DNA from: Dethiobacter alkaliphilus
GTDB taxonomy: Bacteria > Bacillota > Dethiobacteria > DTU022 > UBA8154
Assembly (NCBI GenBank): GCA_016841605.1
Contig: JAENYV010000003.1
Location: 9,064 to 73,063, forward strand
Reading direction: 5' to 3'
DNA: 64,000 bases
Every line of letters starts with the position of its first letter. Positions within the stretch are counted from its first letter, which is position 1. The position numbers and the translations under genes are program-made. Shown here piece after piece: positions 534 to 8,181 of this stretch. The notes below the pieces were generated by a model. It was not told where the DNA came from and searched no databases. It saw only the letters and a program-made list of their open reading frames with translations.

Positions 534-932
534 CTATGCTGTTTGTGTTTTATAACGAATGATTCCCCGGCCAAGTAATTCCAACAAGAACTTGGCTTTT
601 TCTCGCAATAATTCGTCCTTGCATCCCAGAAATTGAGAAAACGCATCTTCCTTTATCAGGGCTGCCTCGTCCAAAGTCTTCCCTTTCACCAATGTACAAA
701 GAATCTCTATGGTTACGTTGGTTATGGGATCACTGATACATTGATACTTGATATCAAAAATAATGTTGTTGACCACTTGGATATAGAGATACAAGAAATC
801 GTCCGTGTTTCCACAGACGGGGCTGACTTCACCGAAAGTTTCCAGGAAAATGGATGCATTTTCAAGTTTACCTATATGCTCAAATCCAGTTTTTAATAAT
901 TTTTGGTAATACGCTGTAACTGCTTCTTGCAT
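534..932 (-). CDS. NifU/IscU-like Fe-S cluster scaffold-domain protein (divergent)
   Basis: 132 aa; SPVCGNTDD, KYQC and GKTLDEAALI segments resemble IscU N-terminal-domain motifs; directly downstream of a cysteine desulfurase. Confidence 0.45.
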   Translation of the reverse strand: MQEAVTAYYQKLLKTGFEHIGKLENASIFLETFGEVSPVCGNTDDFLYLYIQVVNNIIFDIKYQCISDPITNVTIEILCTLVKGKTLDEAALIKEDAFSQFLGCKDELLREKAKFLLELLGRGIIRYKTQTA

Positions 933-965
933 TTCGTTATCCCCCCTAATTCACTGACTTCAAGC

Positions 966-2309
966 TTAGATATAGCCGCGCTCTTTAAATATCTCATCTA
1001 GCGTTTCCAGGAATATCCGACATTCATCCATGGTATTGTAGAAGTAGCAGGAAACCCGGTACACCATTCTATGCTCACTGTGCGATATGGGGCGGGTCCA
1101 TTCCTGTCCGAACTTCTCGTTAAAATAGGGATGCACACAGAAAACACCGTCCCTGATCATGACGTTATTCTTTTCGCTAAGCTCGGCTGCTATCCCCAAC
1201 GCATTCGGCCGTTTGACTTCGAAGGTCAAGATTCCGCCCCTTTGTGACGCATTTTGGGGGCCGATGATTCTGAACCATCCCGTATCTCCATAACGGTTTA
1301 TCAGTTCCTCGGTCAGAAAATGGTTCAAGCTGCCTTCATGCTCCCTTATCCTGTCCATTCCAATCTGCTGTAGGTATTGAACAGCTACTCCCGAGGCAAT
1401 CTGGGCGGGGTAATTCTGAATTCCTGCTTCGAATCTATACGGCGGAAGCATAAGGGTGTAGTAATGATATGTCGAATTGGCGACTGTTCCACCGCCCTGA
1501 ATGACAGGTGCGATCACATGATCCGCCTCATCCTCTTCATGGGGATTTTGTCCAAGAAGTTCTTTTTTCCCATAAAGCACACCCACCCCTCGCGGCCCAC
1601 ACATCTTATGAAGTGAAAAAGCCAGGAAATCGACGTCCAGGTTCTGAACGTCAATCGTTTGGTGGGGCGCGGTCTGAGCGCCGTCCAGGAGTACCAGGGC
1701 ACCGTATTGATGTGCAATTTTGGTTATTTCTTTTGCAGGTATGGTATAACCGGTTATGTTTGACGTGTAGGCCATACTGACCAATCTGACCCGGTCCGTT
1801 TTCATCTTCCGCTCGAAAGCATCTAGATCAAAGTCATCCTGTTCATTGGGTACTGTAAAATCAACCTTGATACGTCCAGTTTTCTGCAACTTCAGCCAGG
1901 GAAGCAAATTCGAATTGTGTTCCTTATCGGTCAGTAAAACAACATCCCCGGGCTGGAATGGAAAACCAAGTGCCACCATATTGAGGGCATGAGTTGTATT
2001 CATGGTAAAAATGATTTCTTTTTCAGAACCCGCGTTGATAAACTCGGCAATGATCCGGCGTGGCCCCTTTATGCCCTTTCCGGAATTTCCTTCAATGCGT
2101 TCGGAAACCTCTTGGGCAAACCAATGACGGCTTCTTGTGCCGCTACATGAGGGATATTCCGTATAATACTCTTGAATTGCCTCAATGACCTGTCTGGGCA
2201 CCATGGTTGTGCACGCATTATCCAGATAAATGGGGGGTTTCCCCTTTCTCTGTCTCTTAAGTGAGGGAAAGTTTTCTCTACATTCCTCAATTGATTTTCT
2301 GCTATCCAT
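966..2309 (-). CDS. cysteine desulfurase, class V aminotransferase (SufS/CsdA-like)
   Basis: PLP-lysine motif SLHKMCGPRGVGVLYG and class V fold-type architecture; start moved to the internal ATG at 2307-2309 (MDSRKS...) because the ORF-track N-terminus has no RBS. Confidence 0.8.
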   Translation of the reverse strand: MDSRKSIEECRENFPSLKRQRKGKPPIYLDNACTTMVPRQVIEAIQEYYTEYPSCSGTRSRHWFAQEVSERIEGNSGKGIKGPRRIIAEFINAGSEKEIIFTMNTTHALNMVALGFPFQPGDVVLLTDKEHNSNLLPWLKLQKTGRIKVDFTVPNEQDDFDLDAFERKMKTDRVRLVSMAYTSNITGYTIPAKEITKIAHQYGALVLLDGAQTAPHQTIDVQNLDVDFLAFSLHKMCGPRGVGVLYGKKELLGQNPHEEDEADHVIAPVIQGGGTVANSTYHYYTLMLPPYRFEAGIQNYPAQIASGVAVQYLQQIGMDRIREHEGSLNHFLTEELINRYGDTGWFRIIGPQNASQRGGILTFEVKRPNALGIAAELSEKNNVMIRDGVFCVHPYFNEKFGQEWTRPISHSEHRMVYRVSCYFYNTMDECRIFLETLDEIFKERGYI

Positions 2310-2400: not shown

Positions 2401-2562
2401 TTATTTGGATTTTTCATTTTCTCCAGGTAAAATTTTAAAGTCACAACAGCCCTTTTTACCCGCCTCTTCTTTTACTTCAACAATTTTCATGTCACAACAT
2501 CCTGACTTTGGCCTTTTAAGAAAGCCAAACAAACCCTTCTTTTCTTTTTTTTCTGTTTTCAT
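2401..2562 (-). CDS. 53-aa Cys-rich small peptide with two tandem GCCD-x-KI repeats
   Basis: Hand-translated ORF missing from the ORF track: MKTEKKEKKGLFGFLKRPKSGCCDMKIVEVKEEAGKKGCCDFKILPGENEKSK. GGAGG RBS 8 nt upstream. The motif recurs at the N-terminus of the next gene. Confidence 0.45.
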   Translation of the reverse strand: MKTEKKEKKGLFGFLKRPKSGCCDMKIVEVKEEAGKKGCCDFKILPGENEKSK

Positions 2563-2592
2563 TTTCAAACATCCTCCGGTATTATCTTTCTA

Positions 2593-2841
2593 TTATTTGG
2601 ATTTAGCCAAATAGCGTTTATATTCCGCAAACAAAGCTCTCTTGTATTCTCTTTCAGCACTTTCCGGGACATAATTTTTTTGTTGCACTATATCCAACAG
2701 TTTTTCAGTAGCTTTTTCATCCGCTAAGTCAAGGTCCTTTATATCCAGAAAAGCTTGTTCTAATCCGAACAAACCTACCTGTATACCGCCAACGTTTAGC
2801 TTATAGATCTTAGGTGCATTAGGATCACAACAGCTGCTCAT
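2593..2841 (-). CDS. 82-aa protein with N-terminal vicinal-cysteine motif (SSCCDPNAPKIYKL); uncharacterised
   Basis: ORF directly downstream of the ArsP-like permease; its N-terminal CCD..KI motif matches the repeats of the 53-aa peptide. Confidence 0.55.
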   Translation of the reverse strand: MSSCCDPNAPKIYKLNVGGIQVGLFGLEQAFLDIKDLDLADEKATEKLLDIVQQKNYVPESAEREYKRALFAEYKRYLAKSK

Positions 2842-2865: not shown

Positions 2866-3786
2866 TTATAATAATGGGTGAAGAGTTTGGAAAATGCACC
2901 CGGTCAGGATAGCCACAGTGAGAATCGTAACCGCAAAGGTAGCCACCAACCTGGGCTTAAATATTGATGCCAATAGGGTTAATTCAGGAATACTTGCTCC
3001 CGCTCCGCCGATTATCAGCGCCAATAACGTTCCCAGACTCATACCTTTGGCCAGCAATACAGAAGCAATAGGGATCAAAGTTTCAACCCGAATATACATG
3101 GGAACTCCAATGACGGCAGCAACCGGTATCGCAAGAGGGTTACCCGGTCCGGCCACTTTAATGATGAATTGCTCCGGCACAAAACCGTAAATAAACGAAC
3201 CGATAGCGGCACCTATAATTAAGTAAGGAACGACCTGAAGAAATAAGGCCCACGTTTGCATACCGGCACGTATCACCTTTTCTTTTTTAGTTAACGGTTC
3301 ATCATTTGATCCATCTTCTGTACAACAACCAAATTGGATGCGTACATTTTTATATGTGCCGGCTAGACCCATTCGCTCCCATAATGCTCCAATGAAAACA
3401 GCTAAAATAAAAGTTATTATCCCATAAAGAAGAGTAAATTTCCAACCCATCATAGTTAGAAAAAGTATAAGTATGACCGGATTAAGAAGAGGTGAAGAAA
3501 TTAGAAAGGACATGGATGCACCAAAAGGGGCGCCTCCGTTAAGTAAACCTACCAAGATGGGAATGGTGGAGCAGGAGCAAAAAGGGGTAAGTGCCCCTAA
3601 AGCAGCCCCCAGTATATTTCCAAGCCACTTTTTCGGTTTTGTGAGAAACCGTTTTATTGTTTCTTCGCTGACAAACTCCTGGAGCAAAGCAATCAGAAAA
3701 GAGATACCAATGAATAACGCCAGCAGTTCACCGGTGATCAAGAGAAAGTACTTTCCTGCAATAACGAGATTATTTATCTCAAACAT
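2866..3786 (-). CDS. arsP: DUF318/COG0701 permease, ArsP-like (putative organoarsenical efflux permease)
   Basis: 306-aa polytopic membrane protein with the ArsP signature TPFCSCSTIP; sits in an ars island next to padR. Confidence 0.7.
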   Translation of the reverse strand: MFEINNLVIAGKYFLLITGELLALFIGISFLIALLQEFVSEETIKRFLTKPKKWLGNILGAALGALTPFCSCSTIPILVGLLNGGAPFGASMSFLISSPLLNPVILILFLTMMGWKFTLLYGIITFILAVFIGALWERMGLAGTYKNVRIQFGCCTEDGSNDEPLTKKEKVIRAGMQTWALFLQVVPYLIIGAAIGSFIYGFVPEQFIIKVAGPGNPLAIPVAAVIGVPMYIRVETLIPIASVLLAKGMSLGTLLALIIGGAGASIPELTLLASIFKPRLVATFAVTILTVAILTGCIFQTLHPLL

Positions 3787-3804: not shown

Positions 3805-4158
3805 TTATTCTTCTTTTCCCAACCCCAGGATATAGACGGCAACTTCTCTCCATGCCGCTGAAGCCACTTGATATGCACGTTCCCCGGCAGATGTAATTGT
3901 ATACACTTTTCGTTCACGCCCGGAAACCACCTGGGTAGTTAAATTGACCATTCCGGCATCCGTAAACTCTTTTAATACCGGATAAAGACTTCCCTCAGTA
4001 GGTGCACAACAACCATTTGTAAGAGATGAAACATGCTTGGTTATTTCATAGCCGTGTAGCGATTGCTGGTTAAGCACATGTAAGATAAAGAAACGGGAAA
4101 GGCTCATTTTAATCAGGCTGGCCCAGTATTCCGGAGACTCATATTTAGTATCATTCAT
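3805..4158 (-). CDS. PadR-family transcriptional regulator
   Basis: 117 aa with the PadR winged-helix signature (FFILHVL...HGYEI...GSLYPVL..E..G). Confidence 0.8.
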   Translation of the reverse strand: MNDTKYESPEYWASLIKMSLSRFFILHVLNQQSLHGYEITKHVSSLTNGCCAPTEGSLYPVLKEFTDAGMVNLTTQVVSGRERKVYTITSAGERAYQVASAAWREVAVYILGLGKEE

Positions 4159-4204: not shown

Positions 4205-4245
4205 CAAATATATTATGATTTGTATAACATAATTTGTCAAGAAGA
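4205..4245 (-). promoter_or_regulatory. sigma-A-type promoter with embedded PadR-like operator (ATGA-N8-ACAT) upstream of padR
   Basis: Minus strand reads TTGACA, a 17-nt spacer, then CATAAT; the spacer contains ATGTTATACAAATCAT, which matches the PadR ATGT-N8-ACAT consensus with one mismatch. Confidence 0.4.
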
Positions 4246-4371: not shown

Positions 4372-5436
4372 TCAACTTTTTTGCAGCATCGAGGGAAACC
4401 AGTATTTTGTTCTTAGACAGAAACTTACAAGTAAAAGCATAATGGGAACCTCAATCAGTACCCCCACAACCGTGGAAAGTGCGGCCCCCGATTCCAGGCC
4501 GAAGAGGGTAATTGCGGTGGCGATGGCTACCTCGAAGTGGTTGCTGGCGCCGATCATTGAAGCAGGAGCGGCTTCTTCATAAGTGATGCCTATTATTTTG
4601 GAGGCGCCGTAACCCAGCCAAAAAATAAATAGCGTCTGGATAACGAGAGGAACGGCAATCAAGGCCACTACGAGGGGGAAACGCAGTATTACTTCTCCCT
4701 GCAGCATAAAGAGGAAGATAAGAGTGGCCAAAAGGGCGAGAATGGAGATGTTGCCCATGTTTTTTATAAAGACACCCTCATACCATTCCATACCCTTACT
4801 TTTAATGAGTCGGGTACGGGTAAAGTAGCCGGCTACCAGGGAAACACCCACATAAAGCAGAACACTGTAAAAGATGGTCATAAAAGGGACAACCATCTCG
4901 GCAACACCTAGTAAAAAATTGCCGAGGGGAGCATAGAGGACCAGCATGGTGAGAGAGTTAATGGCGACCATAACCAGTGTCAGCCCCATAAATCCTCTGG
5001 AGAGATAGCACCAGACCAGTACCATGGCAGTACAGGGTGCTATCCCTAAAAGGATCATCCCGGCAATATATTCCGTAGCCATATTATATTCCATATATGG
5101 AGCCCAGATGATGCGCATGAACAGCCACGCAAAGAAAAACATGGTAAAAGGCTTGATGCCCCAATTTATTATTAAAGTCATAAGAACCGGTTTGGGCGCC
5201 TTGACGGCGTTAACCACTTCGCTAAAGTCGATCTGCAACATAATGGGGTACATCATGGCAAAGAGAAAGATAGCGACAGGAATATTGACCTGGGCTACCT
5301 GCAGAGAGTTGAGCAGCTGCGCGGAGGCCGGAAAAGCTGCCCCCAGGCCGATCCCCGCTAATATACATAAAGCAACCCAAACTGTTAAATACTTGTGAAA
5401 AAAACTCAGCTGATACTCTTTTGTTTCATTCATCAT
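4372..5436 (-). CDS. acr3: arsenite efflux transporter, ACR3 family
   Basis: N-terminus LSFFHKYLTVWVALCILAGIGLGAAFP matches the conserved ACR3 start; ~10 TM segments; start placed at ATG 5434-5436, which has a GGAGG RBS. Confidence 0.85.
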   Translation of the reverse strand: MMNETKEYQLSFFHKYLTVWVALCILAGIGLGAAFPASAQLLNSLQVAQVNIPVAIFLFAMMYPIMLQIDFSEVVNAVKAPKPVLMTLIINWGIKPFTMFFFAWLFMRIIWAPYMEYNMATEYIAGMILLGIAPCTAMVLVWCYLSRGFMGLTLVMVAINSLTMLVLYAPLGNFLLGVAEMVVPFMTIFYSVLLYVGVSLVAGYFTRTRLIKSKGMEWYEGVFIKNMGNISILALLATLIFLFMLQGEVILRFPLVVALIAVPLVIQTLFIFWLGYGASKIIGITYEEAAPASMIGASNHFEVAIATAITLFGLESGAALSTVVGVLIEVPIMLLLVSFCLRTKYWFPSMLQKS

Positions 5437-5478
5437 TCGAAGCCTCCACAGAAAAATTAATCTACGCGCCACCTGTTT

Positions 5479-6654
5479 TTATCCGGGGAAAAAAGCACCG
5501 TAAAGCAAACCCGCCAGAGTAGACATGAGAACCACCAGAGCGACATAAACCAGCGTTTTGGGGGTTCCCATTACGCTGCGGATAACCAGCATGTTGGGTA
5601 GACTCAGCGCCGGTCCCGCCAACAGCAGGGCGAGGGCGGGACCCTGGCCCATCCCCAGGCCGAGAAGTCCCTGCATAATGGGAATTTCGGTCAGGGTGGC
5701 AAAATACATAAATGCACCGACAATAGAGGCTAAAAAATTGGCCTGCAGGGAGTTGCCTCCCACTGCCGTTTCAATAACGCCTGAGGGGATAAGGCCCGCT
5801 TCAACTCCGGGGCGCCCCATGAGCAACCCTGCCACAAGGACACCACCGAAAAGCAGCGGCAGGATCTGCTTGGCAAAAGTCCAGCTGGCATCTACCCAGC
5901 TGAGGCGTTCATAATCTTCAAACCAGCGCACCAGAACAAAAGCGAGTATCCCCAACAGGATAATAACCAGGTACCACTTGATGGCGAAGATAAAATTCCA
6001 GAAACCTGTCGCCTCCTGCGGCCTTCCCCAGGCTGCAAAGATCAGGATGAGTACGAGCACCACAAAATAAAAGAGGTTCTGGGCCGGGCTGCGCCTTTCT
6101 TCCTGGTCAAACATCTGCCCCATTGATGCTTTAGCTTTTTCTGCTTCCTCATGACGGTAAATAAAAGCCATGAACAGCCCGATTACCACGGCAAAAAGAA
6201 CGGCCCCCACAGCCCTGGCCAGACCCAGCTGCCAGCCCAAAACCCGCGCCGTGAGAATTATGGCCAGGATGTTAATAGCCGGGCCGGAGTACAGGAAAGC
6301 GGTGGCCGGGCCGATCCCCGCTCCTTTTTTCCAGATGCCGGCAAATAGAGGCAGTACCGTGCATGAGCATACCGCGAGGATACCTCCGGAAACGGAGGCC
6401 ACTGAGTAGGCAAGGTATTTGGGAGCTCCTCCTCCGAAGTACTTGAGAACCGCGCCCTGGGAAACAAAAATAGAAATAGCCCCGGCAATAAAAAAAGCGG
6501 GTACCAGGCAGAAAAGGACATGTTCCCGGGCATATTCCTGCAGCATATGGAATGCTTCCAGAATAGAGACCTGCACTAGCGTATTGTTGAATGGGACAAA
6601 ATAGGCTGCCAGAAATACGCCTACAATCAGTGTTAACTTATGCCATTCCTTCAT
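5479..6654 (-). CDS. DUF318/COG0701 family permease (second ArsP-like paralog)
   Basis: 391-aa membrane protein with a conserved AVCSCTVLP motif, analogous to the ArsP CSCS motif; AGGAG RBS. Confidence 0.65.
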   Translation of the reverse strand: MKEWHKLTLIVGVFLAAYFVPFNNTLVQVSILEAFHMLQEYAREHVLFCLVPAFFIAGAISIFVSQGAVLKYFGGGAPKYLAYSVASVSGGILAVCSCTVLPLFAGIWKKGAGIGPATAFLYSGPAINILAIILTARVLGWQLGLARAVGAVLFAVVIGLFMAFIYRHEEAEKAKASMGQMFDQEERRSPAQNLFYFVVLVLILIFAAWGRPQEATGFWNFIFAIKWYLVIILLGILAFVLVRWFEDYERLSWVDASWTFAKQILPLLFGGVLVAGLLMGRPGVEAGLIPSGVIETAVGGNSLQANFLASIVGAFMYFATLTEIPIMQGLLGLGMGQGPALALLLAGPALSLPNMLVIRSVMGTPKTLVYVALVVLMSTLAGLLYGAFFPG

Positions 6655-6721
6655 TTATCTTCATCTCCTGATAACTGTTATTTAACCGGCTTTCGGGAAT
6701 ACCCGGTTAAAGGCTAATTTT

Positions 6722-6930
6722 TTATGATAGCTCTTCCTTAATCCACTTTTTAATTTCTTCTTTGCGGGGTACACGGCCGAATACTTTGACTTTTTCGTTT
6801 ACCACCAGTCCCGGAGTCATCATGATATCGTGCTCCATGATTTTATCCATAAGCATTAATAATTAAAAACATGGCCAATTCCAGTAAATAAAACAGACAG
6901 ATCAAGTCTCAAAATGAGCAGGATTTTAGA
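6722..6930 (-). pseudogene. decayed thioredoxin-fold 'redox-active disulfide protein 2' (TM0996/MTH895-like) remnant
   Basis: A 44-codon ORF (MLMDKIMEHDIMMTPGLVVNEKVKVFGRVPRKEEIKKWIKEEL) matches the C-terminal half of that family. The upstream out-of-frame segment reads ..DLSVLFTGIGHV.., resembling a mutated VLGTGCxxC active site. Confidence 0.4.
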
Positions 6931-6933
6931 GTT

Positions 6934-7359
6934 TTACTCTATCAGTTCTCTAATTATGTCCTGAACAAGCTTAGAAATTTGATCCCTGACCGCTCGGAAT
7001 TTAGCCATTTTTTCAACATCTGATCCCTCTGCTCCGGCCGGGTCTTCCAAAGGCCAGTGACGCTTTTGAACCTTCCCCGCTACTACCGGGCAGCTTTCCC
7101 GGGCATCTCCGCACAGGGTTATAATGTAATCAGCTTGATCCAGTATATTCTTATCGATAGCTTTAGAAATTTGAGCGGATATATCTATCCCGGCTTCTTT
7201 CATTACAGCAACAGCCTTGGGGTTAACACCGGCAGGGGAGATCCCGGCGCTGTAAACTTCCATGCCATCTCCGCCAAAGTATCTGGCAAAGCCCTCCGCC
7301 ATCTGGCTGCGGCATGAGTTGCCGGTGCACAAAAAAACTATTTTAATCTTGGGTTTCAT
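6934..7359 (-). CDS. arsC: arsenate reductase ArsC (thioredoxin-coupled, LMW-PTP family)
   Basis: MKPKIKIVFLCTGNSCRSQMAEG P-loop plus the LCGDARESCP Cys pair; G-run RBS before ATG 7357-7359. The 202-aa ORF-track version reads through A8/G7/A7 homopolymers into upstream sequence. Confidence 0.9.
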   Translation of the reverse strand: MKPKIKIVFLCTGNSCRSQMAEGFARYFGGDGMEVYSAGISPAGVNPKAVAVMKEAGIDISAQISKAIDKNILDQADYIITLCGDARESCPVVAGKVQKRHWPLEDPAGAEGSDVEKMAKFRAVRDQISKLVQDIIRELIE

Positions 7360-7504
7360 TTTTTTGTAATCCCCCCCATTTTTTTTGTTGAAGTCGACCG
7401 TATACGGTCTTCCTTTTACCTGGACTGTTATCTTTTCATTTATCTTTTCAGCAGTTTGTCGTTTTAGTAATATGGCTAAACTAGCCATCAGAGCCACCGC
7501 CTCA

Positions 7505-7780
7505 TCACCGAATAGTTTTCTTAATTTGGATCTCATCTCCATCTTTTATTTCTTTAGCGGGACCTTCTGCATCTACTTTCTTTTTATTAACCAGCACTTC
7601 AATATTTGAATGCAGTGCCGGCGCATCTCCTATCTCATAAAATAGAATGTCTTTCATTTTGGGTAAAAGGCTTACAAGATGGTTGAGGCATTCGCCCACT
7701 GTTTTGCCATTTACCTCAAATTCCTGTTTTCCTTTCGTAATGACAGACAGGCTGCTTTGAAGATATAACTTTATACTCAT
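7505..7780 (-). CDS. MoaD/ThiS-like beta-grasp small protein (no C-terminal GG)
   Basis: 91 aa (MSIKLYLQ...KDGDEIQIKKTIR); the C-terminal DGDE-I-x-I pattern is MoaD-like; start overlaps the arsR stop. Confidence 0.45.
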   Translation of the reverse strand: MSIKLYLQSSLSVITKGKQEFEVNGKTVGECLNHLVSLLPKMKDILFYEIGDAPALHSNIEVLVNKKKVDAEGPAKEIKDGDEIQIKKTIR

Positions 7781-8181
7781 CTCAGGGTACCTCCTGCAGT
7801 AGAAGTTTTGCTTGCCAGGCACCCCGTGCCCCCTCTGGTAACGCACGCGGGACCAATGCGTTCAGCTTTCTTAAGCCTCTCAAGATCCTCCTTTGTGACA
7901 GGGCTGCTTTCGAGAGCCCGCATGATGCCGGTCAGTATGTCGTTAACATAATTTTTCGTCTGGTCGGTATCAATGGAGTAAAGCGCCCAGCGGCCCTCCC
8001 TCCTTAAGTTGAGCAGTCCCGTATCGTAAAGGGCGCTCAATATCCGCGATGCCTTGGACTGAGAAATCTCCATAACCTGCATTACCTCGCATACGCAACA
8101 CTCCCTTTCCTGGAGAAGGTTGAGGACTCTGAGCCTCGACTCGTCGGAAAGGACTTTAAGCAACTTCGTAAGTTTTCTCAT
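7777..8181 (-). CDS. arsR: ArsR/SmtB-family metalloregulator
   Basis: HTH with metal-binding ECCVCEV motif (the ELCVCDL equivalent); first gene of the arsR-arsC unit. Confidence 0.85.
   Translation of the reverse strand: MRKLTKLLKVLSDESRLRVLNLLQERECCVCEVMQVMEISQSKASRILSALYDTGLLNLRREGRWALYSIDTDQTKNYVNDILTGIMRALESSPVTKEDLERLKKAERIGPACVTRGGTGCLASKTSTAGGTLR

What the first reader, a model, noticed from the sequence alone, without database searches (positions are those of the whole stretch)
2401..2841. Family of tiny vicinal-cysteine (CCD-x-KI) proteins beside an ArsP-like permease: candidate novel As(III)-binding metallochaperones
Two adjacent minus-strand genes share the motif C-C-D-x(0-4)-K-I-[VLY]. 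A 53-aa peptide carries it twice in tandem (GCCDMKIV, GCCDFKIL). An 82-aa protein starts with SSCCDPNAPKIYKL. The 53-aa gene has a good RBS but is too short for standard ORF callers. Vicinal Cys pairs are the classic As(III)/Sb(III) ligand geometry, as in ArsD Cys12-Cys13 and the ArsR CVC site. These genes end an operon padR-arsP-CC protein-CC peptide, directly upstream of sufS and an iscU-like gene. I know no described ars component with this motif. They could be metallochaperones feeding the permease, sequestration peptides, or substrates for sulfur transfer.
Basis: partly seen in the sequence, partly recalled or inferred. Interest (0 to 1): 0.8.

Follow-up and report, generated by a model that had tools for sequence, protein, structure and literature searches.

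The report
Cysteine-pair helpers of arsenic permease
Two tiny, previously unnamed genes carrying adjacent-cysteine "hooks" are real, conserved partners of an arsenic-type export permease in anaerobic bacteria, and most likely catch or pass on toxic arsenic compounds, although no binding has been measured.

Summary
On the minus strand, padR (4158-3805), an ArsP_1 permease (3786-2866), an 82-aa protein (2841-2593, MSSCCDP...) and a 53-aa peptide (2562-2401, GCCDMKIV + GCCDFKIL) form one unit. It lies directly downstream of an arsR-arsC-arsP-acr3 cluster. Both small genes are conserved and under coding selection.

The 82-aa protein belongs to a large domain family absent from Pfam and NCBIfam: 553 clusters, a beta-hairpin plus three helices, and no PDB relative. 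Most members are fused to Thioredoxin_3 (MTH895/ArsE-like) domains. Stand-alone members instead carry an N-terminal CC tail (101/135 versus 5/108). The peptide is found fused to this domain in other bacteria.

In this module PadR (GCCAPTEG) and the permease (FCSCS, plus a loop GCC) also carry cysteine pairs. ArsM, Acr3, ArsC and ArsR recur nearby. Sister loci have candidate selenocysteine versions (C-U-D-T, U-C-D).

Best reading, from context only: these are dithiol arms that capture trivalent arsenicals, possibly methylarsenite, and pass them to the permease. A pure redox role or another thiophilic metal is not excluded. Arsenic binding is untested.

The parts
4212..4240 (-). Sigma-70-like promoter upstream of padR (TTGACA-17-CATAAT). 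It overlaps an inverted repeat TTATG-N10-CATAA, a possible PadR operator.
   Evidence: 11 of 12 consensus matches; sequence read. The operator reading is inference only.
3805..4158 (-). PadR-family regulator carrying a vicinal Cys pair (NGCCAPTEGSLYP) just before the conserved GxLYP segment. Candidate sensor of the module.
   Evidence: PF03551, 2.2e-21. GCCAPT[ED/V]G is conserved in 12 of 12 homologous loci.
2866..3786 (-). 306-aa ArsP_1-family permease (the short, roughly 300-aa ArsP type). It has a TM motif TPFCSCSTIP and a central-loop motif VRIQFGCCTED.
   Evidence: PF03773, 1.4e-58. It scores below the cut-offs of SaoE and SO_0444. F-C-[SA]-C-S (FCSCS in 8, FCACS in 2) is found in 10 of 10 loci and the loop GCC in 8 of 10.
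2593..2841 (-). 82-aa protein. A flexible N-terminal tail (MSSCCDPNAP) carries the Cys pair, followed by a beta-hairpin (12-25) and three helices with a conserved NY[IV]P...Y...A...E core. It belongs to an unnamed domain family.
   Evidence: family. (AlphaFold pLDDT 91.3; tail about 66). (no PDB relative). (no Pfam or NCBIfam hit).
2401..2562 (-). 53-aa Lys/Glu-rich peptide: a KKGLFGFLKR segment followed by two GCCD[MF]KI[VL] repeats.
   Evidence: 12 homologues, both CC pairs invariant. (third-position substitution bias, RBS conserved). (homologous N-terminal extension fused to the 82-aa domain in P0211, P0071, P0067, P0121).
966..2309 (-). SufS-like class-V aminotransferase (cysteine desulfurase or selenocysteine lyase type). 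The likely start is the ATG at 2309; the mechanical ORF runs to 2366. No terminator was found between it and the peptide gene. It is a frequent neighbour of the module.
   Evidence: PF00266, 6.6e-93. TIGR01979 scores 335 bits, below its 475 cut-off. It is adjacent to the module in L004, L005, L009, L017, L032 at 85-91% identity. No terminator seen.
534..932 (-). NifU/IscU-like protein retaining three Cys (VCGNTD, YQCISD, LGCKDE).
   Evidence: PF01592, 7.5e-6. It travels with the SufS-like gene.
4372..8181 (-). Adjacent upstream ars cluster: arsR (8181-7777, CCVC site), a MoaD-like beta-grasp gene, arsC (7542-6934), a Thioredoxin_3 remnant (6856-6722), a 391-aa ArsP_1 permease (6654-5479) and acr3 (5472-4372).
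   Evidence: Acr3 scores 371 bits on TIGR00832 (cut-off 283). ArsC scores 190 bits on TIGR02691 (cut-off 174). Promoter-like site at 8257-8229.

Best explanation
The 82-aa protein and the 53-aa peptide are accessory thiol-arm proteins of a PadR-controlled ArsP-type efflux module.

Proposed mechanism (inferred):
1. A trivalent arsenical enters or is made in the cell. It is most economically a two-coordinate species such as methylarsenite, though As(III) bridged between two pairs is possible.
2. It binds the vicinal Cys pair of PadR and de-represses the operon.
3. The soluble 82-aa protein captures the arsenical on the Cys pair of its flexible N-terminal tail.
4. The Lys-rich peptide, with two Cys pairs, buffers or concentrates it, possibly at the membrane face.
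5. By thiol exchange the ligand passes to the permease's cytoplasmic-loop Cys pair, then to the transmembrane C-S-C site, and is exported.

The folded core of the 82-aa protein (conserved NY[IV]P patch) is the docking or scaffold part. In most relatives the same core carries a Thioredoxin_3 CxxC domain instead of the CC tail.

Shown here: gene reality, conservation, synteny, the domain family, the fusions and the motif distribution. Inferred: ligand identity, binding, hand-over and docking.
For: 1. Reality and selection of both genes.
2. Conserved order PadR - ArsP(about 300 aa) - domain - peptide, or peptide - domain, in L002-L009, L017, L025, L031, L036, L044.
3. Cys pairs occur in all four proteins: PadR GCCAPT in 12/12 loci, permease F-C-[SA]-C-S (FCSCS 8, FCACS 2) in 10/10 and loop GCC in 8/10, and CC invariant in both small proteins. 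CC is otherwise rare in the window.
4. Rosetta-stone fusions of a peptide-like segment to the domain: P0211 sits directly after PadR-ArsP_1 in L036, and BLASTP of the peptide against the P0211 N-terminus gives E = 2e-5.
5. The CC tail and a fused Trx3 CxxC domain are alternatives: 101/135 stand-alone members have the tail versus 5/108 fused members, Fisher P = 1e-31.
6. Of 59 family genes in the fetched loci, 38 lie within 2.5 kb of an ArsP_1 permease, and 55 lie within 2.5 kb of ArsP, Acr3, ArsR, ArsC, Trx3 or PadR.
7. ArsM passes its NCBIfam cut-off directly beside the module or fusion in L005, L002 and L039.
8. The Cys pair lies on a low-confidence, flexible tail of an otherwise confident fold.
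9. Sister loci replace the motif by in-frame TGA (C-U-D-T in 14/14; U-C-D in L017), marking the pair as the functional site.
10. Literature: ArsP exports MAs(III) and Rox(III) but not As(III) (PMC6205960). MAs(III) needs two Cys and As(III) three (PMC11868830). ArsD sets the precedent for a Cys-pair arsenic chaperone (PMC6205960).
Against: - No binding, expression or phenotype data exist.
- The window has no arsM, so an internal MAs(III) source is not evident here.
- ArsP_1 is a broad family that includes Cu/Zn efflux (SO_0444) and SaoE. This permease is below the cut-off for every named subfamily.
- The CC tail is not conserved across the domain family, so the core function of the domain is something else. 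Docking is my inference.
- The complementarity with Trx3 fits a redox function at least as well.
- AlphaFold did not pack the domain against Trx3 confidently (pTM 0.61).
- The membrane-binding idea for KKGLFGFLKR got no support from a hydrophobic-moment test (1473 of 2000 shuffles were as good).
- Some family members sit in contexts without a permease (L013, L014, L018-L020, L040, L041).
Confidence: 0.45

Rival explanations
1. Redox arm rather than ligand carrier. The vicinal Cys pair (or Cys-Sec pair) on a flexible tail cycles between dithiol and vicinal disulfide or selenenylsulfide, like the C-terminal GCUG/SCCS tail of thioredoxin reductases. It would do the job that the fused Thioredoxin_3 CxxC does in most relatives: keep the permease cysteines reduced, or supply electrons to ArsC-type chemistry.
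For: The CC tail and fused Trx3 are mutually exclusive. Trx3, thioredoxin, DsbD/CcdA and rhodanese genes recur beside family members. Sec substitution is typical of redox sites. [quoted passage not shown] The TrxR tail analogy comes from my own knowledge.
Against: Vicinal disulfides are strained and rare. Every partner in the module (regulator, permease loop, peptide) carries the same pair, which fits ligand relay better than electron transfer. The peptide has no fold to tune a redox potential. No reductase for the pair is encoded in the module.
Confidence: 0.25
2. The same relay architecture, but for another thiophilic species such as Hg(II) or organomercury, Sb(III), Cd, or Cu/Zn. Vicinal Cys pairs also serve two-coordinate Hg(II), as in MerT.
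For: The permease's nearest named NCBIfam models are SaoE and the SO_0444 Cu/Zn exporter, both below cut-off. The CC/CU theme in the SAO system was interpreted as heavy-metal or organometal handling (bioRxiv 10.1101/2022.07.06.499078). ArsR/SmtB and PadR regulators are not arsenic-specific.
Against: Neighbours are consistently Acr3, ArsC (thioredoxin type) and ArsM, all above curated cut-offs. No mer, cop or czc genes were seen in the loci examined.
Confidence: 0.12
3. Sulfur (or selenium) trafficking. The Cys pairs accept persulfide or perselenide from the adjacent SufS-like/NifU-like pair, for thiolation of arsenicals or for Fe-S repair under arsenic stress.
For: The SufS-like + NifU-like pair lies next to the module in the window and in L004, L005, L009, L017, L032 at 85-91% identity. 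No terminator was found between the peptide gene and the SufS-like gene. Other class-V aminotransferases and rhodaneses occur in related loci.
Against: About half of the module loci lack the pair (L006, L008, L025, L031, L036). Known persulfide carriers use single Cys. The domain's main partner across the family is Trx3/ArsP_1, not SufS.
Confidence: 0.08
4. The peptide ORF is not a functional protein. It would be a chance ORF, a leader peptide, or a RiPP precursor.
For: It is very short and of low complexity (Lys/Glu-rich), and it is often uncalled.
Against: Substitutions are third-position dominated, the Cys residues are invariant with varying codons, and the RBS is conserved. The peptide is fused in frame to the domain in other taxa. 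No RiPP-modifying enzymes are nearby.
Confidence: 0.02

Closest known systems
ArsD arsenic metallochaperone (PF06953)
   Same: A small cytosolic protein encoded in ars operons. It uses a vicinal Cys pair to bind trivalent metalloid and hand it to the efflux machinery (PMC6205960; the Cys12-Cys13-Cys18 detail is from my own knowledge).
   Different: ArsD has a thioredoxin fold, a three-Cys site, and ArsA ATPase as partner. The 82-aa protein has no sequence match, a beta-hairpin plus three-helix fold, only two Cys, and sits beside a secondary permease.
Thioredoxin_3 / MTH895-ArsE family ('redox-active disulfide protein 2', PF13192, TIGR00412)
   Same: A habitual neighbour of ArsP_1 permeases in ars islands (PMC2963123). 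Most members of the 82-aa domain family are N-terminal extensions of exactly this domain.
   Different: The window protein has no Trx3 domain and no CxxC. It carries a CC tail instead.
SAO system of anaerobes (SaoE permease, SaoT thioredoxin-like, SaoC CC/CU-COOH protein)
   Same: A recurring CC/CU motif across several proteins around an ArsP-family permease and a small thioredoxin-like protein. Terminal CC is sometimes replaced by CU (bioRxiv 10.1101/2022.07.06.499078).
   Different: No homology to SaoC, which is a roughly 158-aa lipoprotein. There is no ABC importer and no MerB-like SaoL. The permease is below the SaoE cut-off (113 versus 325 bits). The context here is Acr3/ArsC/ArsM.
VcpD, 'ArsD-related vicinal cysteine protein' (NCBIfam NF047871)
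   Same: NCBI curators have named a vicinal-cysteine protein family related to ArsD. A roughly 113-aa ORF in sister loci weakly resembles it (E = 0.01).
   Different: The 82-aa protein and the peptide do not match it. I found no paper describing the Vcp system in the library searched.
MAs(III)-selective ArsR of Shewanella putrefaciens (SpArsR)
   Same: A two-Cys site suffices for methylarsenite and excludes As(III), and it controls an arsP gene (PMC11868830, PMC12124457).
   Different: It has an ArsR/SmtB fold. Here the regulator is a PadR with a GCCAPTEG pair, and its ligand is unknown.
C-terminal GCUG / SCCS redox tail of thioredoxin reductases (own knowledge)
   Same: A vicinal Cys-Sec or Cys-Cys pair on a flexible terminal tail. 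The 95-aa paralogue ends ...A-C-U-D-T.
   Different: That tail belongs to a flavoenzyme that reduces it. No such reductase is encoded in this module.

Membership tests
ArsD (PF06953) | Sequence match to the ArsD profile | tested here: not met
   No Pfam or NCBIfam hit at E <= 0.1 for the 82-aa protein or the peptide.
ArsD (PF06953) | Thioredoxin-like fold | tested here: not met
ArsD (PF06953) | Three-Cys As(III) site (Cys12, Cys13, Cys18) | tested here: not met
   The 82-aa protein has only C4 and C5.
ArsD-like function (arsenic chaperone) | Binds a trivalent arsenical and transfers it to a transporter | not testable with these tools
   Needs ITC or XAS and transport assays.
Thioredoxin_3 / MTH895-ArsE (PF13192) | Trx3 domain with CxxC | tested here: not met
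   The window protein has none. Relatives such as P0040, P0183 and P0188 have it C-terminal to the shared domain.
New domain family defined here (alignments A1, A3, A4) | Profile match, beta-hairpin + 3 helices, G23 / L48 / N56-Y57-x-P59 / Y66 / A69 / E73 core | tested here: met
   373 representatives at E <= 1e-3. 553 clusters. Invariant columns. Model.
ArsP_1 permease (PF03773), for the neighbouring 306-aa gene | Profile match and the conserved C-S-C transmembrane motif | tested here: met
   PF03773, 1.4e-58. TPFCSCS present.
ArsP (methylarsenite efflux permease, C. jejuni type) | Transports MAs(III)/Rox(III) and not As(III) | not testable with these tools
   Function known from PMC6205960 and PMC11653729. 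Orthology to the characterised protein was not tested here.
SaoE / SO_0444 subfamilies | Score above the NCBIfam curated cut-off | tested here: not met
   113 versus 325 bits, and 101 versus 300 bits.
PadR (PF03551), for the regulator | Profile match | tested here: met
   2.2e-21. The extra GCCAPTEG pair is conserved in 12/12 loci.
SaoC (CC-COOH protein) | Signal or lipoprotein peptide, about 158 aa, C-terminal CC/CU | tested here: not met
   82 aa, no hydrophobic N-terminus, and the CC is N-terminal. The description of SaoC comes from bioRxiv 10.1101/2022.07.06.499078.
Metallothionein-like peptide (for the 53-aa peptide) | High Cys content in Cys-x-Cys / Cys-Cys clusters | tested here: not met
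   4 Cys in 53 residues (7.5%); the rest is Lys/Glu-rich.
Selenoprotein (95-aa paralogue in sister loci, not in the window) | In-frame TGA at a conserved position with coding continuation | tested here: met
   C-TGA-GAC-ACy-TGA in 14/14 copies. The Thr codon varies ACC/ACT/ACA.
Selenoprotein (95-aa paralogue) | SECIS-like hairpin downstream of the UGA | tested here: inconclusive
   A conserved 9-bp stem with a GGU loop lies about 21 nt after the UGA in 13/14 copies. There is no covariation, and the energy z-score is only -0.7.
Selenoprotein (95-aa paralogue) | Cys-containing homologue at the same position; Sec machinery in the genome | tested here: inconclusive
   One long paralogue (L023:5605-5925) ends GACCQL and aligns within one residue. 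selA/selB/selC were not searched for.

The most novel reading that the evidence does not exclude
The module is a dedicated vicinal-dithiol (and in some species selenothiol) relay for two-coordinate organoarsenicals such as methylarsenite. It would comprise a PadR sensor with a Cys pair, a soluble carrier of a new fold (CC tail, or C-terminal C-U-D-T in a paralogue), a micro-peptide with two Cys pairs (U-C in one species), and a permease with a loop Cys pair feeding its C-S-C site. That would be the first metallochaperone system described for a secondary arsenical permease. It would also add two or three new selenoprotein families to arsenic biology.
Probability: 0.3. Interest if true: 0.85.

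Novelty: new variant of a known kind. Interest (0 to 1): 0.68.

Why it matters
Arsenic efflux by secondary permeases (ArsP, Acr3) is thought to need no chaperone. ArsD, which serves the ArsAB pump, is the arsenite metallochaperone described in the literature I read.

A conserved, unannotated domain family of hundreds of clusters accompanies ArsP-type permeases. It carries either a Cys-pair tail or a thioredoxin-like domain. This points to a missing step in how anaerobes handle trivalent arsenicals, including the 'primordial antibiotic' methylarsenite.

It also gives a concrete role to the long-unexplained 'redox-active disulfide protein 2' genes of ars islands. It offers a 53-residue peptide and an 82-residue protein as compact candidate arsenical binders for biosensing. 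And it flags candidate selenoproteins that annotation pipelines currently truncate.

Tried and rejected
- Pfam and NCBIfam scans of both small proteins, the fusions and the 95-aa paralogue found nothing for the shared domain.
- A profile search of PDB sequences gave only E >= 0.7 noise.
- tblastn against plasmids found no match.
- I tested the idea that KKGLFGFLKR is an amphipathic, MinD-like membrane-targeting helix using the hydrophobic moment. It was not distinguishable from shuffles. It remains a resemblance recalled from memory only.
- SECIS folding energies are not significant on their own.
- The Thioredoxin_3 fragment at 6856-6722 is not a Sec-truncated gene. The upstream in-frame stop is TAA, so it is an N-terminally deleted remnant.
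- No second copy of either small gene and no arsM exist in the window.
- Literature searches for ArsE/MTH895, PadR+arsP and VcpD found no description of these proteins.
- The primary ArsP and SpArsR papers are not held, so I cite those facts through PMC6205960 and PMC11868830.
- Look-ups of P0001 and P0040 contigs failed, so the source organism is inferred only from the nearest loci. L006, an uncultured Dethiobacter, has permeases and Acr3 at 91-94% identity.
Full report
**1. What is in the sequence**

On the minus strand the window carries two consecutive units.

- The first runs from arsR to acr3. It holds arsR (8181-7777, with a CCVC site), a MoaD-like beta-grasp gene, a thioredoxin-type arsC (7542-6934), a Thioredoxin_3 remnant (6856-6722), a 391-aa ArsP_1 permease (6654-5479) and acr3 (5472-4372).
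- The second starts at a strong promoter-like site (TTGACA-17-CATAAT, 4240-4212). It holds padR (4158-3805), a 306-aa ArsP_1 permease (3786-2866), the 82-aa ORF (2841-2593) and the 53-aa ORF (2562-2401). A SufS-like gene (2309-966) and a NifU-like gene (932-534) follow, with no terminator detected in between.

They are SSCCDPNAPKIYKL, GCCDMKIV and GCCDFKIL.

CC is rare in this genome. There are 3 CC and 0 CCD in 16,852 residues of long ORFs. Three CCD in 135 residues is therefore far beyond chance (Poisson P = 2e-6).

**2. Both small genes are real**

The 82-aa protein has 20 close homologues (62-100% identity) with M1, C4, C5, D6 and P7 invariant.

The peptide has 12 homologues with both Cys pairs invariant. 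Among eight peptide orthologues taken from genomic loci:
- Substitutions fall 302/187/652 on codon positions 1/2/3.
- The four Cys codons vary between TGT and TGC.
- Each gene is preceded by GGAGG.

The peptide start is the ATG at 2562 (53 aa), not the TTG at 2568.

**3. The 82-aa protein belongs to a large, unnamed domain family**

An exhaustive HMMER search with the close-family profile found 373 representatives at 50% identity (E <= 1e-3). A second profile search found 553 clusters at 90% identity.

Pfam and NCBIfam have no model for the domain. No PDB sequence matches it.

AlphaFold with a 113-sequence alignment gives a confident model (pLDDT 91.3, pTM 0.78). The model has:
- a less confident N-terminal tail, with residues 1-10 (which hold the Cys pair at 4-5) at pLDDT about 66;
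- a beta-hairpin at residues 12-25;
- three helices.

**4. Domain architecture gives the main functional clue**

Most family members are 160-175-aa proteins. In them the domain precedes a Thioredoxin_3 (MTH895/ArsE, 'redox-active disulfide protein 2') domain with GPGCxxC. One member is fused to DUF2703.

The N-terminal Cys pair and the fused Trx3 domain are largely mutually exclusive. 101 of 135 stand-alone members have CC in the tail. Some of the remaining stand-alone members have CxC instead (15 stand-alone members have a CxC). Only 5 of 108 fused members have CC (Fisher P = 1e-31).

So a common core carries one of two alternative dithiol devices.

**5. The peptide is a partner module**

In other bacteria a segment homologous to the peptide is fused in frame to the N-terminus of the domain. 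Its pattern is KKGL[FL]SR[IF]F..G..CC[DN]VRIEEIPEE. The examples are P0211, P0071, P0067 and P0121. BLASTP of the peptide against P0211 gives E = 2e-5.

P0211 is encoded directly after PadR-ArsP_1(298 aa) in L036. That is the position occupied in the window by the two separate genes.

In L005, L009 and L010 a variant peptide (MLKKLFETLK...GGGCCNIEIVP...NNNCCGQ) lies between the permease and the domain gene.

**6. Synteny**

In 46 fetched loci I found 59 genes or fragments of the domain family:
- 38 lie within 2.5 kb of an ArsP_1 permease.
- 55 lie within 2.5 kb of at least one of ArsP, Acr3, ArsR, ArsC, Trx3 or PadR.

The four-gene unit PadR - ArsP(about 300 aa) - domain - peptide recurs in Dethiobacteria, Desulfotomaculaceae, Pelotomaculum and other Bacillota MAGs.

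Fused members sit in these orders:
- ArsR - ArsP_1 - [domain::Trx3] - Acr3
- ArsR - ArsP_1 - Trx3 - [domain::Trx3] - ? - DsbD - Acr3
- ArsR - ArsP_1 - [domain::Trx3] - Trx3 - ArsM

ArsM passes the NCBIfam cut-off directly beside the module in L005 and L002, and beside the fusion in L039.

Not every member has a permease neighbour. Some follow only ArsR (L013, L014, L018, L020). Others sit with Trx3, thioredoxin and rhodanese (L041), or are orphans (L040).

**7. A Cys-pair theme runs through the module**

- PadR homologues all carry GCCAPT[E/D]G immediately before the conserved G[SA]LYP segment (12/12 loci).
- The short permease carries the family's TPFC[SA]CS motif (10/10 loci).
- The permease also carries a central-loop motif V[RM]I..GCC (8/10 loci).

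With the CC tail and the two CC pairs of the peptide, every protein of the unit has a vicinal pair.

From the literature:
- As(III) sites in ArsR proteins use three Cys, whereas methylarsenite needs only two. The two-Cys SpArsR responds to MAs(III) only (PMC11868830).
- ArsP from C. jejuni exports MAs(III) and trivalent roxarsone but not arsenite (PMC6205960; see also PMC11653729).

This is why I favour a two-coordinate trivalent organoarsenical as ligand. That step is inference. The window itself has no arsM.

**8. Selenocysteine variants in sister loci point to the pair as the active site**

None of these variants is in the window.

- **A 95-aa paralogue.** It lacks the N-terminal CC (MSSSDPKASKIYKIDVGG...). 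It ends ...PAC-TGA-GAC-ACy-TGA-TAA in 14 of 14 copies, and the Thr codon varies ACC/ACT/ACA. In 13 of 14 copies a conserved hairpin (9-bp stem, GGU loop) follows about 21 nt later. Read through, the C-terminus is C-U-D-T, a Sec version of C-C-D.
- **The L017 peptide gene.** It has TGA in place of the first Cys of the first pair (E-U-C-D-MKIVEV). A local palindrome there is absent from the Cys versions.
- **A third ORF of about 113 aa, ArsD-like.** It is weakly similar to NCBIfam VcpD (E = 0.01). It has an in-frame TGA after Cys or Gly in 10 of 10 intact copies, followed by an A/T-C-C-G motif in 8 of the 10.

Hairpin energies and covariation are not decisive, and I did not check for Sec machinery. 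These remain candidates.

**9. Mechanism**

My best-supported model (confidence about 0.45) is a thiol relay:
1. The PadR Cys pair senses the arsenical.
2. The 82-aa protein captures it on its flexible CC tail.
3. The peptide buffers or concentrates it.
4. The ligand passes to the permease loop pair, then to the C-S-C site, and is exported.

The conserved helical core (NY[IV]P patch) would be the docking or scaffold element that relatives use to position a Trx3 domain.

The main rival (about 0.25) is that the pair is a redox arm, functionally equivalent to the Trx3 CxxC. A different thiophilic metal (about 0.12) and persulfide traffic with the SufS/NifU-like pair (about 0.08) are not excluded. 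A spurious or RiPP-type peptide is disfavoured.

**10. Comparison with known systems**

The module works like ArsD (a Cys-pair arsenic chaperone), but it fails every membership feature of that family tested here: profile, fold and three-Cys site.

It shares the CC/CU theme with the SAO system, which also has an ArsP-family permease and a small thioredoxin-like partner (bioRxiv 10.1101/2022.07.06.499078). It has none of that system's defining proteins.

NCBI has a model named 'ArsD-related vicinal cysteine protein VcpD', so the general idea of vicinal-cysteine ars accessories has been noticed by curators. Neither small protein matches that model, and I found no paper on it.

I rate the finding as a new variant of a known kind, namely thiol-based accessory or chaperone proteins of arsenic resistance. 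It has a new fold and a new partner, a secondary permease.

**11. Verdict**

The genes, the conservation and the arsenic context are solid. The 'one family' reading and the 'As(III)' reading need revision. Binding is untested.
- Interest is 0.68.

Noticed in passing
L025:7998-8300, L031:7998-8300, L026:7998-8300, L033:7989-8291, L024:5032-5334, L032:8001-8303, L020:6161-6463, L016:1911-2213, L015:7444-7746, L023:6078-6380, L021:219-521, L042/L043:4001-4300, L045:3986-4290: A 95-aa paralogue of the 82-aa domain lacks the N-terminal CC. It ends PAC/LVC-TGA-GAC-ACy-TGA in 14/14 copies, with wobble variation in the Thr codon. A conserved hairpin UUCUGUUUU-GGU-AAAACAGAA follows about 21 nt downstream in 13/14 copies. 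It is a candidate selenoprotein with C-terminus C-U-D-T.
   Followed up: partly
L017:2960-3112: The peptide orthologue of a Desulfotomaculaceae MAG has TGA where the first Cys of the first pair should be (MGKEKKEKKGFFDFFKRPKPSE-U-CDMKIVEVDN...GCCDFEVVP). A palindrome UUGUCGAGGUCGACAA about 14 nt downstream is absent from the Cys versions. This is a single example.
   Followed up: partly
L011:~5400-5760, L025:~7450-7800 and a minus-strand copy, L015 (-), L031 (-), L032:~4980-5330, L042, L043, L045, L017:2567-2950: An ORF of about 113 aa (KVSVTIFGTNAPMPASSC-TGA-GPPTEDACCGS...LPLIVLNGQPRFHGGIS) has an in-frame TGA in 10/10 intact copies, and two consecutive TGAs in L017. With U read as C it weakly resembles NCBIfam NF047871, 'ArsD-related vicinal cysteine protein VcpD' (E = 0.01). 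It has no Pfam hit.
   Followed up: partly
window 6722-6856 (-): The Thioredoxin_3 / MTH895-ArsE gene beside the 391-aa permease is only a C-terminal remnant of 44 aa. The in-frame stop upstream is TAA, so it is a deletion and not a Sec codon. Orthologous loci have intact 79-84-aa genes.
   Followed up: yes
window 534-2309 (-); L004:2881-4662, L005:4458-6231, L009:5546-7320, L017:4153-5925, L032:9482-11270: A divergent SufS-like / NifU-like pair travels with the PadR-ArsP module. Its identity (85-91% and 72-85%) is higher than that of the small proteins (60-78%) across different taxa. This suggests a horizontally moving island and a possible functional link such as Fe-S repair or S/Se mobilisation.
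   Followed up: partly
window 3805-4158 (-) and 4212-4240: The PadR regulator carries a conserved GCCAPTEG vicinal pair next to its GxLYP segment (12/12 loci). Its promoter contains the inverted repeat TTATG-N10-CATAA between the -35 and -10 hexamers. I found no arsenic-responsive PadR of this kind in the literature searched.
   Followed up: partly
L005:7806-7967, L009:~7800-7964, L010:2-58: A variant peptide (MLKKLFETLKMKGSGGGCCNIEIVPKD...NNNCCGQ) lies between the permease and the domain gene. ArsM lies directly downstream of the domain gene.
   Followed up: partly
L023:5605-5925: A long version of the domain protein carries both an N-terminal CC (MGSCCGYD) and a C-terminal ...SGACCQL. The C-terminal motif aligns within one residue of the C-U of the 95-aa paralogue.
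   Followed up: partly
window 7505-7846 (-): A MoaD/SAMP-like beta-grasp ORF lies inside the ars operon between arsR and arsC. It scores below the NCBIfam cut-off and ends ...KKTIR, without the C-terminal Gly-Gly of sulfur carriers.
   Followed up: no
L034:1455-2279: In a Candidatus Eisenbacteria MAG the domain is followed by two tandem Thioredoxin_3 domains in one 274-aa ORF, immediately after a 461-aa ArsP_1 permease.
   Followed up: no
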